Shown one piece after another: positions 48,567 to 50,093 of a stretch of DNA of 64,000 bases. The stretch comes from Escherichia coli. GTDB taxonomy: Bacteria > Pseudomonadota > Gammaproteobacteria > Enterobacterales > Enterobacteriaceae. Position numbers and translations under genes: made by a program. The notes below the pieces were generated by a model. It made no database searches and was not told where the DNA came from. It saw nothing but the letters and a program-made list of their open reading frames with translations. Each line of letters starts with the position of its first letter. Position 1 is the first letter of the stretch. The stretch is taken from assembly GCF_009931435.1 (NCBI RefSeq), contig NZ_CP043414.1; one strand, 5' to 3'.

Positions 48567-48592
48567 TGAAAACGTTTCTGCAATCGTTTTCA
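48567..48592. promoter_or_regulatory. Candidate operator TGAAAACG-N10-CGTTTTCA in the divergent MFS/porin and regulator promoter region
   Basis: Exact 8-bp inverted repeats with a 10-bp spacer; the same arms and spacing recur at 50068-50093. Confidence 0.5.
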
Positions 48593-48885
48593 TGTATAAT
48601 TATCGTCATTAGTTTCCCGGGGGATGTCAATTCGACTCAGCGAATATTTGTTAATCAGTTCACATTCCGGATATCTGCTTAGAGAAAAAATGTGATGTTG
48701 TTCTTAAAGCCATCAAGAAAGCTCGCGACAAAGATCGGATACGTACACGCTCAGGACGTAGTAAACATCCAACATTTCTTTGTACATACAAAAAATTGCC
48801 GTACCATTTTACAAGGCCAATCATTACGCACTGGCCTTTTGAATGACGGGACCTTTCAGGTAATTAATACATACGGGAGTCAGCT

Positions 48886-49914
48886 ATGAGCCTGGAAAGC
48901 GAAGAAAAAGACCAAACAGAAAAAAAGCTGATCACCATGCGTGACGTGGCGAATGCTGCCGGGGTGAGTATTTCTACCGTTTCGCGTATCCTGGATGAAA
49001 GATTACCGCCATCTAAAAGCGCTTCTGCCGAAAAAGTACGCCAGGTCGCACGCGAATTGGGCTATCGTCGGGATTATGTTGCCTCCAGTCTCCGTCGCGG
49101 CGGCACCGGGACACTTGGTGTATTAGTTCCACGCCTGACTGATGCAGTTACTGCAATGTTGTTTGAAGAAATCGCTAAAGCAGCGTCGCATCGTGGTTAC
49201 TTCGCAGTGGTCGCGACTTGTGGAGACGATCCCCAGCAAGAGCGAGAATCTGTAGAATCACTTCTCGACAGGCGGGTCGACGGCTTGATTATGTCAACCT
49301 GTCGCCTCGGCGATCCCCTACCGCAAACTTTGCGTGAAAGGGATATTCCCCATGTGCTCGCCCTGCGTACTGATGGTGTTAGCCCATCATCCATCGGCGA
49401 TGATGAACTGGGTGGTTACCTTGCTACTCGCCATCTTATTGATTTAGGACATAAAAACATCGGTTTGATAGGTGGCCCGGATTTTGCCTCAAATGCGCTT
49501 AATCGCCGTAAAGGTTTTGAAAAGGCAATGCGCGAAGCCGGACTAACTATACAGCCGCAATGGTGCTGTTCATCAGACTTTAACATCCAGTCGGGAGAAG
49601 AAGCAGGGATGAAACTCCTCAGAACGACTCCTGCTCCAACCGCTATTTTTGCGGTAAATGACGAAATAGCGATTGGTGTGGTTGCTGCCGCTCACCATTT
49701 GGGGATAACAATCGGCCAAGAGTTGTCGTTAGTGGGTTATAACGACATTCCTCTGGTCAGCCGACTTCCTGTGGCGCTCACTTCCGTAAGAACGCCGCTA
49801 GAGCATATCGCCAGTAATGCTGTGGACATGTTGATTAATGCCGACAGTGGCCGCTCTTTGCGTACAACCATACCGACTTTAATACCAAGAAAATCAACGA
49901 GTTCACCCAAGTAA
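48886..49914 (+). CDS. LacI-family transcriptional regulator (accessory locus gene 3), 342 aa
   Basis: ORF track; N-terminal HTH ITMRDVANAAGVSISTVSRIL; periplasmic-binding-protein-like effector domain; GGGAG ribosome-binding site 6 nt upstream. Confidence 0.85.
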   Translation: MSLESEEKDQTEKKLITMRDVANAAGVSISTVSRILDERLPPSKSASAEKVRQVARELGYRRDYVASSLRRGGTGTLGVLVPRLTDAVTAMLFEEIAKAASHRGYFAVVATCGDDPQQERESVESLLDRRVDGLIMSTCRLGDPLPQTLRERDIPHVLALRTDGVSPSSIGDDELGGYLATRHLIDLGHKNIGLIGGPDFASNALNRRKGFEKAMREAGLTIQPQWCCSSDFNIQSGEEAGMKLLRTTPAPTAIFAVNDEIAIGVVAAAHHLGITIGQELSLVGYNDIPLVSRLPVALTSVRTPLEHIASNAVDMLINADSGRSLRTTIPTLIPRKSTSSPK

Positions 49915-49923
49915 AGCCTGTCT

Positions 49924-49962
49924 TTCATTTGCTGCAAAACCCGGGGTTTTGCAGCAAATGAA
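49924..49962. terminator. Near-perfect 19-bp palindrome 10 bp downstream of the LacI-family gene stop (terminator-like hairpin, no clear T-tract)
   Basis: TTCATTTGCTGCAAAACCC-g-GGGTTTTGCAGCAAATGAA. Confidence 0.45.
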
Positions 49963-50067
49963 GAACATTAAAATTCTTATATTCCTTCCCTGATTTTGTG
50001 ATCCCTGCTGCATTTTTCAACAACTGTTGATTGACAACCTCATTCATCAGGTTCAAATTCAATCTTG

Positions 50068-50093
50068 TGAAAACGATTGCAAGAACGTTTTCA
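50068..50093. promoter_or_regulatory. Second copy of candidate operator TGAAAACG-N10-CGTTTTCA, 58 bp upstream of the DapA-family gene
   Basis: Exact 8-bp inverted repeats with a 10-bp spacer, identical in arms and spacing to 48567-48592. Confidence 0.5.

What the first reader, a model, noticed from the sequence alone, without database searches (positions are those of the whole stretch)
48567..50093. Shared inverted-repeat motif TGAAAACG-N10-CGTTTTCA in both promoter regions of the accessory locus: candidate operator of the LacI-family regulator
Exactly the same 8-bp arms with the same 10-bp spacer occur at 48567-48592 (between the MFS/porin operon and the regulator gene) and at 50068-50093 (58 bp upstream of the DapA-like gene). 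The half-site (AAACG / CGTTT) resembles LacI/GalR-family operator cores. This ties the two divergent transcription units into one predicted regulon under the locus-encoded repressor.
Basis: seen in the sequence. Interest (0 to 1): 0.6.

Follow-up and report, generated by a model that had tools for sequence, protein, structure and literature searches.

The report
Overlapping double operator of LacI-type repressor
Two copies of a 26-bp DNA site in a rare E. coli nutrient-uptake island are very probably the docking sites of the island's own LacI-family repressor. This is an ordinary kind of switch, but each site is two overlapping 14-bp boxes exactly 12 bp apart, a geometry kept from Actinobacteria to E. 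coli whose binding mode is still unexplained.

Summary
TGAAAACG-N10-CGTTTTCA occurs exactly at 48567-48592 and 50068-50093 and nowhere else in the window; no shuffle gave an exact match. The two copies are inverted relative to each other and 24/26 identical, spacer included, so each reads the same way toward its operon (MFS/porin on the minus strand, DapA-like/FAH/Dcu on the plus strand).

Orthologous regulators (53-88% identity) in Klebsiella, Dickeya, Pantoea, Halomonas, rhizobia, Microbacterium and Rhodococcus always sit beside the same DapA-like gene and a transporter, and the site is conserved while its flanks drift.

The anatomy needs refining. The unit is a CG-centred 14-mer (TGnnAnCGnTnnCA). 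Two or three of these overlap by 2 bp with a strict 12-bp phase in all 45 arrays examined, so the "8-N10-8" palindrome is a by-product.

Both target promoters look lac-like: a CRP-like site at about -61.5, a TTGACA -35, a weak -10, and the operator from about +3. Near-identical copies in 5,426 E. coli genomes occur only with this island (14 genomes).

This is a new member of a known kind. Overlapping LacI sites about 13 bp apart were noted in 2014 and never explained. No binding data exist, and the inducer and pathway are unknown.

The parts
48567..48592 (-). Operator array 1, read toward the MFS/porin operon as TGAAAACGATTGCAGAAACGTTTTCA. It holds two CG-centred 14-mers, 48579-48592 and 48567-48580, sharing 2 bp. 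The CG centres are at 48585/86 and 48573/74, 12 bp apart.
   Evidence: Conserved in L002, L004 and L006.
50068..50093 (+). Operator array 2, read toward the DapA-like operon as TGAAAACGATTGCAAGAACGTTTTCA. It holds box 50068-50081 (a full LacI-type palindrome, TGAAAACGATTGCA) and box 50080-50093 (CAAGAACGTTTTCA). The CG centres are at 50074/75 and 50086/87.
   Evidence: Conserved in L002, L004, L006 and L008.
48886..49914 (+). LacI-family regulator gene (342 aa), the presumed repressor that binds both arrays. It has the HTH ...AAGVSISTVSRILDE... and the hinge ...ASSLRRG...
   Evidence: best NCBIfam hits (RbsR, CytR, PurR) are all below their curated cut-offs. RefSeq annotation. Pfam PF00356, PF13377 and PF00532; alignment of orthologues.
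47061..48458 (-). MFS transporter gene (aromatic-acid/H+ symporter-like), first gene of the minus-strand target operon.
45595..46938 (-). OprB-type carbohydrate porin gene, second gene of the minus-strand target operon.
   Evidence: (PF04966 in the orthologue).
50151..51080 (+). DapA-like (DHDPS-family) enzyme gene, first gene of the plus-strand target operon and the gene always linked to the regulator.
51352..52233 (+). FAH-family (HpaG / FAHD1-like) enzyme gene.
52324..53610 (+). DcuA/DcuB-family C4-dicarboxylate transporter gene.
48649..48664 (.). CRP-like site TGTTAATCAGTTCACA, one mismatch to TGTGA-N6-TCACA. Its centre, 48656.5, is at -61.5 from the inferred minus-strand start site at about 48595.
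   Evidence: The TCACA half is invariant in four genera. The position relative to the start site is inferred.
48602..48630 (-). Inferred MFS/porin promoter: -35 TTGACA (48630 to 48625), a 17-bp spacer, and -10 GACGAT (48607 to 48602). The start site is about 48595, which puts operator array 1 at +4 to +29.
   Evidence: Read. The TTGAC block, the (G/A)ACGAT block and the ungapped 17-bp spacing are kept in E. coli, Klebsiella, Dickeya and Pantoea. Not found by the stricter scan.
49997..50012 (.). Weak CRP-like site TGTGATCCCTGCTGCA. The left half, TTTTGTGA, is invariant. Its centre, 50004.5, is at -61.5 from the inferred start site at about 50066.
   Evidence: conserved block TTTTGTGA...TGC.GCA. 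Three mismatches to the consensus, so this is tentative.
50031..50059 (+). Inferred DapA-like operon promoter: -35 TTGACA (50031-50036), a 17-bp spacer, and -10 CAAATT (50054-50059). The start site is about 50066, which puts operator array 2 at +3 to +28.
   Evidence: TTGAC and TTCAAATTCAA blocks conserved. Inferred.
48538..48567 (+). Promoter-like site TTGAGA-18-CATAAT pointing at the regulator gene. Its -10 ends on the first base of operator array 1, which allows autoregulation.
   Evidence: 10 of 12 matches. A -10-like hexamer abuts the site in all four genera.
49919..49967 (.). Strong hairpin (24-nt arms, 92% complementary) just after the regulator's stop codon. It probably insulates the regulator transcript from the DapA-like operon.
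   Evidence: I2. Different hairpins occupy the same place in the orthologues.

Best explanation
Both 26-bp elements are operators of the island-encoded LacI-family repressor. Each is a composite of two CG-centred 14-bp LacI-type boxes (TGnnAnCGnTnnCA) that share 2 bp, so their centres are 12 bp apart. In E. coli three of the four half-sites are good (TGAAAAC | GATTGCA and GTTTTCA) and one inner half-site is poor (CAGAAAC / CAAGAAC). Each array sits just downstream of the inferred transcription start of a CRP-dependent promoter (CRP-like site at about -61.5, -35 TTGACA, weak -10), much as lac O1 does. Without inducer, the repressor would block RNA polymerase at the MFS/porin operon and at the DapA-like/FAH/Dcu operon. 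Through a promoter whose -10 abuts array 1 it would probably also damp its own gene. An unknown acidic substrate of the DapA-like enzyme, or a product of it, would release the repressor, and CRP would add catabolite control. Status of the steps: site conservation and linkage to the regulator are shown by comparison; repression, promoter positions, CRP dependence and the inducer are inferred. How neighbouring boxes are occupied is open. My working model is that hinge helices insert at both CG steps and the shared inner major groove takes only one HTH.
For: There are exactly two copies, in the same orientation relative to their operons, 24/26 identical. The regulator has a canonical LacI HTH and a Leu-containing hinge. 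TGAAAACGATTGCA fits the family consensus TGnAAnCGnTTnCA and occurs only at these two places in the window. The 26-mer is kept at both promoters in Klebsiella, Dickeya and Pantoea, and at the DapA-like and KdgM promoters of K. pneumoniae, while the flanks diverge. In 32 of 32 divergent regulator/DapA-like intergenic regions (regulator 53-63% identical), AACGTT-like cores are spaced 12 bp apart (45 pairs) or 24 bp apart (15 pairs), with all other distances at 3 or fewer; 337 kb of flanking DNA gives a flat background. Across 45 unique arrays the outer ends are TG (31) and CA (34), and the junction dinucleotide is CG, CA or TG in 58 of 60 cases, as expected for overlapping TG...CA boxes. Of 44 metagenome stretches with the 22-base pattern, 39 are at orthologous loci and 5 are directly upstream of another LacI gene with the same recognition helix. 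In 5,426 E. coli genomes, near-identical copies occur only with the island. Site positions relative to the start codons (58-83 and 109-134 bp upstream) lie within the usual LacI-family range of 30-140 bp (PMC4052901).
Against: There are no binding or expression data. Promoters and start sites are inferred from weak -10 hexamers, and the strict scan did not call them. The CRP-like site of the DapA-like promoter has three mismatches. According to solved LacI/PurR complexes as summarised in PMC4052901, each dimer contacts about 7 bp on either side of its centre, so two canonical dimers 12 bp apart would compete for the same major groove; simultaneous occupancy therefore needs a non-canonical arrangement. 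No complete-genome motif scan at PWM level was possible, so unlinked regulon members cannot be excluded.
Confidence: 0.82

Rival explanations
1. One reading: one dimer binds a single long palindrome, with its two HTH domains on the 8-bp outer arms (centres about 18 bp apart) and the 10 bp between them acting as a passive spacer.
For: The outer arms are perfect in E. coli. CytR, a LacI-family member, tolerates variable half-site spacing (PMC3454398 is listed but was not read; this rests on my own knowledge).
Against: The 'spacer' is conserved: 24/26 between the two sites and ATTGCA invariant across genera. In rhizobia and other alphaproteobacteria the array is not palindromic about its midpoint, whereas single 14-mers are perfect palindromes, e.g. 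TGGGAACGTTCCCA. Fifteen arrays have three cores. The regulator has a canonical hinge with Leu, which in solved family members inserts at a central CG (family knowledge).
Confidence: 0.07
2. The inverted repeat acts as an RNA hairpin at the 5' end of both mRNAs, affecting stability or translation rather than serving as a protein-binding DNA site.
For: If the start sites are as inferred, both arrays are transcribed. They fold at -8.6 kcal/mol, z = -2.5 and -3.9.
Against: In Klebsiella, Dickeya, Pantoea and K. pneumoniae the changes in the arms are one-sided and weaken the stem (-4.8 kcal/mol in L002), and none is compensatory. Distant arrays are not hairpin-shaped overall. There is no Rfam match.
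Confidence: 0.04
3. The sites are bound mainly by a different LacI-family protein of the host (for example a core-genome paralogue) and not by the island's regulator.
For: Half-sites of the AAACG type are common in the family. A 33%-identical LacI paralogue on other contigs carries the identical 26-mer, so the specificity is not unique to one orthologous group.
Against: The site and the regulator gene travel together across four classes and into a second, IS-flanked insertion site in E. coli. Hosts as different as Rhodococcus and E. coli do not share paralogue sets.
Confidence: 0.04
4. The two copies are a non-functional remnant of a promoter duplication or of a mobile-element repeat.
For: The island is mobile: it is present in 14 of 5,426 genomes, once flanked by IS elements. 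The two promoters share their layout.
Against: Conservation is site-specific against diverged flanks, over hundreds of millions of years of host divergence. The site is not repeated elsewhere in the window or in E. coli genomes.
Confidence: 0.02

Closest known systems
Canonical LacI/GalR-family operators (PurR box, CcpA cre TGWAANCGNTNWCA, family consensus TGnAAnCGnTTnCA)
   Same: Each 14-mer is an even palindrome with a central CG and TG...CA ends. It lies 30-140 bp upstream of a start codon, next to the gene of a LacI-family regulator with a canonical HTH and Leu hinge.
   Different: The boxes never occur singly in this regulog. They come as arrays of two or three sharing 2 bp.
Overlapping LacI-family sites about 13 bp apart, e.g. 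E. coli GntR at gntKU (Ravcheev et al. 2014, PMC4052901, section 'Binding sites and motifs')
   Same: Two sites overlap with a fixed centre-to-centre distance of about one helical turn and are conserved within an orthologous group. The authors note that such sites cannot be reconciled with solved complexes.
   Different: Here the distance is 12 bp and the arrangement is obligate (45 of 45 arrays) across Actinobacteria and alpha-, beta- and gammaproteobacteria, often with a third phased box. This regulog was not found in the part of their supplement that is held.
lac promoter architecture (class I CRP site at -61.5, operator O1 centred at +11)
   Same: The inferred layout of both target promoters has a CRP-like site centred at -61.5 and operator centres at about +8.5/+20.5 and +10.5/+22.5.
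   Different: The start sites are inferred, not mapped. No auxiliary operators at looping distance were seen. The repressor lacks LacI's C-terminal tetramerisation extension (342 aa; plus family knowledge).
QacR-type 'pair of dimers' binding to one long inverted repeat (TetR family)
   Same: This is a precedent, recalled from memory and not tested here, for two dimers occupying overlapping sites on one roughly 28-bp element.
   Different: It belongs to a different protein family with a different DNA-binding geometry, so it is only an analogy for how overlapping occupancy can work.

Membership tests
LacI/GalR-family operator | A cognate LacI-family regulator with an N-terminal HTH and a hinge helix is encoded nearby. 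| tested here: met
   ORF 48886-49914 has Pfam PF00356, PF00532 and PF13377 and is annotated as a LacI-family regulator in RefSeq. The HTH motif STVSR and the hinge ASSLRRG are invariant in 12 orthologues.
LacI/GalR-family operator | An even palindrome of 14-22 bp with a central CG. | tested here: met
   TGAAAACGATTGCA occurs at 48579-48592 (minus strand) and 50068-50081 (plus strand). Perfect 14-mers such as TGGGAACGTTCCCA are found in orthologous loci. The criterion is taken from PMC4052901.
LacI/GalR-family operator | [quoted passage not shown] | tested here: met
   Site 2 lies 58-83 bp upstream of the DapA-like ATG. Site 1 lies 109-134 bp upstream of the MFS ATG.
LacI/GalR-family operator | The site is conserved upstream of orthologous targets wherever the regulator is present (a regulog). 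| tested here: met
LacI/GalR-family operator | The regulator binds the site physically and is released by an effector. | not testable with these tools
   This needs EMSA or footprinting. The effector is unknown.
Overlapping tandem LacI sites (about 13-bp class of Ravcheev 2014) | Two family-type sites whose centres are about 12-13 bp apart. | tested here: met
   The CG centres are 12 bp apart in both E. coli arrays. The 12-bp distance dominates the distribution: 45 pairs, against 3 or fewer for other distances apart from 24 bp.
Overlapping tandem LacI sites (about 13-bp class of Ravcheev 2014) | The arrangement is conserved or preferred within the orthologous group. | tested here: met
   All 45 unique arrays contain at least one 12-bp pair.
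Class I CRP-dependent promoter | A TGTGA-N6-TCACA site centred near -61.5 from a mapped start site. | tested here: inconclusive
   The site at 48649-48664 has one mismatch and the site at 49997-50012 has three. Both are conserved blocks, but the start sites are only inferred from -35/-10 hexamers.
Intrinsic terminator or known RNA element | A GC-rich stem followed by a T run, or a match to a curated RNA family. | tested here: not met
   Neither site was called as a terminator. There is no Rfam match with E up to 1 in 45000-54500. Arm changes in orthologues are not compensatory.
Named LacI-family regulators (RbsR, PurR, CytR, GalR/S, CcpA, GntR, etc.) | The score reaches the curated NCBIfam cut-off of an equivalog model. 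| tested here: not met
   The best hit is RbsR at 205 bits against a cut-off of 382, and all others are also below their cut-offs. The regulator is therefore an unnamed orthologous group.

The most novel reading that the evidence does not exclude
The strict 12-bp phasing of two to three complete LacI boxes, kept in every array from Rhodococcus to E. coli and re-appearing with an unrelated LacI paralogue, may reflect a distinct multi-dimer binding mode of LacI-family repressors. In that mode hinge helices would insert at a CG every 12 bp, neighbouring dimers would share the intervening major groove, and the successive kinks would cooperate in bending the DNA. This mode has never been resolved structurally. 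If so, this regulog would be the cleanest system in which to solve the open '13-bp overlapping sites' problem.
Probability: 0.3. Interest if true: 0.65.

Novelty: new member of a known kind. Interest (0 to 1): 0.4.

Why it matters
The finding assigns a regulator, two operators and probable CRP control to an uncharacterised, mobile six-gene uptake and catabolism island found in 14 of 5,426 complete E. coli genomes. It also defines a regulog that spans four bacterial classes. That gives a direct route to the unknown substrate: the inducer of this repressor should be the substrate or a product of a DapA-like enzyme that is about 85% identical between bacteria and fungi. Separately, the overlapping-box geometry is obligate in this family. 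This makes it a good experimental model for a question left open in the 2014 family-wide survey, namely how LacI-type dimers occupy sites only about one helical turn apart.

Tried and rejected
1. One long palindrome centred between the two CGs, bound by a single canonical dimer. I considered this seriously because the midpoint step is nearly always CG, CA or TG (58 of 60 junctions). I rejected it because the outer TG/CA ends lie beyond a dimer's reach, alphaproteobacterial arrays are asymmetric about the midpoint, and the junction pattern is explained just as well by overlapping TG...CA ends.

2. An RNA hairpin or known RNA family. There is no Rfam hit and no compensatory changes.

3. Looking for the regulog in the RegPrecise-based survey. 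The supplement of PMC4052901 has no match to 'dihydrodipicolinate', 'dapA', 'Nramp' or 'oadA', nor to the regulator's signature peptides. That file is truncated as held, so absence is not proven.

4. Identifying the pathway. Searches of NCBIfam, PDB and the literature gave no characterised close relative of the DapA-like enzyme. The Salmonella xynR paper concerns a different, YagE-type aldolase.

5. Reading Tsunedomi 2003 on the GntR overlapping operators. The paper is not held.

6. A complete-genome motif scan of an island-positive strain.
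Full report
OBSERVATION. The pattern TGAAAACG-N10-CGTTTTCA occurs exactly twice in the window, at 48567-48592 and 50068-50093, and nowhere else even with three mismatches allowed. None of 100 dinucleotide-preserving shuffles produced a single exact match. The two copies are inverted relative to each other. The reverse complement of site 2 equals site 1 at 24 of 26 positions, so the supposed spacer is conserved too, and the repeat finder reports the pair as inverted copies extending over 37 nt. Read toward the downstream operon, both are TGAAAACGATTGCA(GA/AG)AACGTTTTCA.

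CONTEXT. The window is E. coli. The sites lie in a six-gene island inserted between yjcB and ssb/uvrA, present in 12 of 5,426 complete genomes. The genes are an OprB-type porin (45595-46938, minus), an MFS transporter (47061-48458, minus), a LacI-family regulator (48886-49914, plus), a DHDPS-family 'DapA-like' enzyme (50151-51080), an FAH-family enzyme (51352-52233) and a Dcu-type C4-dicarboxylate carrier (52324-53610). Two further genomes carry a diverged copy of the same island elsewhere, flanked by IS3/IS30 remnants, again with the site upstream of the DapA-like gene. The regulator reaches no curated cut-off of any named LacI-family equivalog.

IS IT AN OPERATOR? The regulator has close orthologues in Klebsiella variicola (88%), Dickeya (86%), Pantoea (84%), K. 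pneumoniae (67%), Dickeya solani (65%), Halomonas (63%), Formivibrio (61%), and Microbacterium, Arthrobacter and Rhodococcus (57-60%). In every locus examined it sits beside an orthologue of the DapA-like gene and a transporter (MFS or an Nramp-like PF01566 protein). These are variably joined by an FAH-family gene or an OadGAB oxaloacetate-decarboxylase pump, and by a porin (OprB, KdgM or DcaP). In Klebsiella variicola, Dickeya and Pantoea the 26-mer is present at both promoters with zero or one change. In K. pneumoniae a related 26-mer precedes the DapA-like operon and the KdgM porin gene. Alignments of the two intergenic regions show the 26-mer as the longest invariant block within otherwise 68-70% identical sequence. 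A scan of the metagenome collection with the 22-base version returned 44 stretches. Of these, 39 are orthologous loci. The other five lie directly upstream of a different LacI-family gene (33% identical) with the same recognition helix STVSRVL. In all E. coli genomes, near-identical copies occur only with the island. The motif is therefore not a common genomic word, and it travels with LacI-family genes.

WHAT THE UNIT REALLY IS. In more distant loci the site is not an 8-N10-8 palindrome. Examples are:
- Dickeya solani and Formivibrio: TGCAAACGTTCCCGCAAACGTT.
- Rhodococcus: TGCAAACGTTCCCGGGAACGTTCCCGTGAACGATTTCA.
- Microbacterium: TGGGAACGTTCGCGGGAACGTTTGCAGGAACGATTGCA.
- Rhizobia: TGGGATCGTTAATGGGAACGTTCCCAATATCGTTCTCG.

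What is common to all is an AACGTT-like, CG-centred core repeated with a 12-bp period. In 32 divergent regulator/DapA-like intergenic regions (5.6 kb in total), core pairs lie 12 bp apart 45 times and 24 bp apart 15 times, and every other distance up to 60 bp occurs at most three times. In 337 kb of flanking DNA the distribution is flat. Among 45 unique arrays, 30 have two cores and 15 have three. The outer ends are TG (31) and CA (34), and the dinucleotide midway between cores is CG (24), CA (19) or TG (15) in 58 of 60 junctions.

This is what overlapping 14-mers of the family type TGnnAnCGnTnnCA would give if they share their last and first 2 bp. The junction keeps the C of '..CA', the G of 'TG..', or both. 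Single 14-mers are often perfect palindromes (TGGGAACGTTCCCA), whereas whole arrays are often asymmetric. This argues against a single long palindrome centred between the cores. In E. coli, box 50068-50081 / 48579-48592 (TGAAAACGATTGCA) is a full family-type palindrome and the only such match in the window. The second box (CAGAAACGTTTTCA / CAAGAACGTTTTCA) has a good outer half-site and a poor inner one.

PROMOTER ANATOMY (INFERRED).

Upstream of the DapA-like gene, four genera conserve the following elements:
- TTTTGTGA...TGC.GCA, a weak CRP-like site at 49997-50012.
- TTGAC, the -35 at 50031-50036.
- TTCAAATTCAA, which holds the -10 CAAATT at 50054-50059 after a 17-bp spacer, followed by the operator.

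With a start site near 50066, the CRP-like centre is at -61.5 and the operator spans +3 to +28.

On the minus strand upstream of the MFS gene the conserved elements are:
- a CRP-like site with one mismatch (48649-48664).
- TTGACA at 48630 to 48625.
- an ungapped 17-bp spacer, then (G/A)ACGAT at 48607 to 48602.

This gives a start site near 48595, again puts the CRP-like centre at -61.5, and places the operator at +4 to +29.

A plus-strand promoter-like site, TTGAGA-18-CATAAT (48538-48567), ends on the first base of array 1. All four genera keep a -10-like hexamer there, so the regulator gene may be autoregulated. A strong hairpin at 49919-49967 follows the regulator's stop codon. The layout resembles lac: class I CRP activation, with the operator just downstream of the start site.

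MECHANISM AND ITS OPEN POINT. The best-supported reading is steric repression of both operons, and probably of the regulator's own promoter, by the island's LacI-type repressor, relieved by an unknown inducer and overlaid by CRP control. How adjacent boxes are occupied is unresolved. The 2014 family-wide survey reports a peak of overlapping sites about 13 bp apart upstream of 110 operons. It cites experimental support for E. coli GntR at gntKU, notes that about 7 bp on each side of the centre make base contacts in solved complexes, and concludes that the arrangement is hard to reconcile with the structures (PMC4052901). Mere redundancy of alternative registers would not enforce the invariance of the 12-bp phase seen here. 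This suggests a defined composite complex. My working model, which is inference only, is that hinge helices occupy both CG steps while the shared inner major groove takes one HTH. This fits the three-good-half-sites pattern in E. coli. Successive kinks away from the protein would fan the dimer cores apart.

RIVALS. An RNA hairpin is possible in E. coli (-8.6 kcal/mol), but arm changes in orthologues are one-sided and destabilising, distant arrays are not hairpins, and there is no Rfam match. Binding by a host paralogue is unlikely given strict co-inheritance of site and regulator across classes and into a second insertion site. A non-functional duplication remnant is contradicted by site-specific conservation.

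COMPARISON AND NOVELTY. This is a LacI/GalR-type operator and a member of the already noted class of overlapping tandem sites. The regulog itself appears undescribed: it was not found in the held part of the RegPrecise-based supplement, and no relevant literature turned up. It is therefore a new member of a known kind. The distinctive point is that the overlap is obligate and often triple. Interest is moderate.

LIMITS. There are no binding, expression or start-site data. There was no PWM scan of a complete genome. The inducer and pathway are unknown. The Oad and FAH partners only suggest that oxaloacetate is a product.

Noticed in passing
window 50151-51080: The DapA-like (DHDPS-family) protein is 83-87% identical over its full length to proteins of many Pezizomycotina fungi (Colletotrichum, Pyricularia, Aspergillus, Penicillium, Verticillium, Orbilia) carried on Mb-size fungal contigs, and 62-95% identical across bacterial phyla. 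In Aspergillus brasiliensis the intronless gene sits next to a Zn2Cys6 transcription factor and an MFS transporter (L139). This cross-kingdom conservation is extraordinary for an enzyme with no known function.
   Followed up: partly
window 50151-51080 (protein residues ~48-53, ~141-145, ~167-171): Aligned to solved DapA structures, the enzyme keeps the Schiff-base lysine (AMKNG). However, it has His-Ala where DapA has Thr/Ser-Thr/Ser (GHAGEG against GTSGES), and Phe where DapA has the catalytic Tyr (LFQYP against LYNVP). The chemistry is therefore probably not that of a standard DapA or NAL-type aldolase.
   Followed up: partly
L008 1-5708, L013 1-4037: In K. pneumoniae and Formivibrio the regulator/DapA-like module is joined to oxaloacetate-decarboxylase Na+ pump genes (OadG/A/B) in place of the FAH-family gene. 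This suggests that oxaloacetate is a pathway product and that the FAH protein acts as an oxaloacetate decarboxylase.
   Followed up: no
L099, L100, L102, L103, L123 (metagenome contigs): [quoted passage not shown] The gene is 33% identical to the island's regulator, has the same recognition helix, and sits next to OYE-type and acyl-CoA-dehydrogenase genes on anaerobe-like contigs. The composite design is therefore shared beyond one orthologous group.
   Followed up: partly
window 48481-48492 and 48513-48530: Two blocks in the inferred 5'-UTR of the MFS mRNA, GCAAGACAACGA and TTCACTTGCAGTTATT, are invariant or nearly so in E. coli, Klebsiella, Dickeya and Pantoea. No function is assigned to them.
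   Followed up: no
window 49919-49967: A hairpin with 24-nt arms, 92% complementary, with no T-run after it, lies immediately after the regulator's stop codon. Orthologues have different hairpins at the same position.
   Followed up: no
window 45112-45127: A perfect CRP consensus TGTGATATAGTTCACA lies in the pdeC-yjcB intergenic region, about 130 bp upstream of yjcB.
   Followed up: no
L141 (NZ_AP027520.1 1001184-1015209): A diverged copy of the whole six-gene island sits at a different chromosomal site in E. coli LR-31, flanked by IS3 and IS30 remnants; E. coli 21AR0133 gave the same single 26-nt match but its locus was not inspected. The module is mobile.
   Followed up: partly
window 51081-51351: There is a 271-bp gap between the DapA-like and FAH genes. 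Klebsiella variicola and Dickeya carry a second MFS transporter gene at this position, so the E. coli island seems to have lost it.
   Followed up: no
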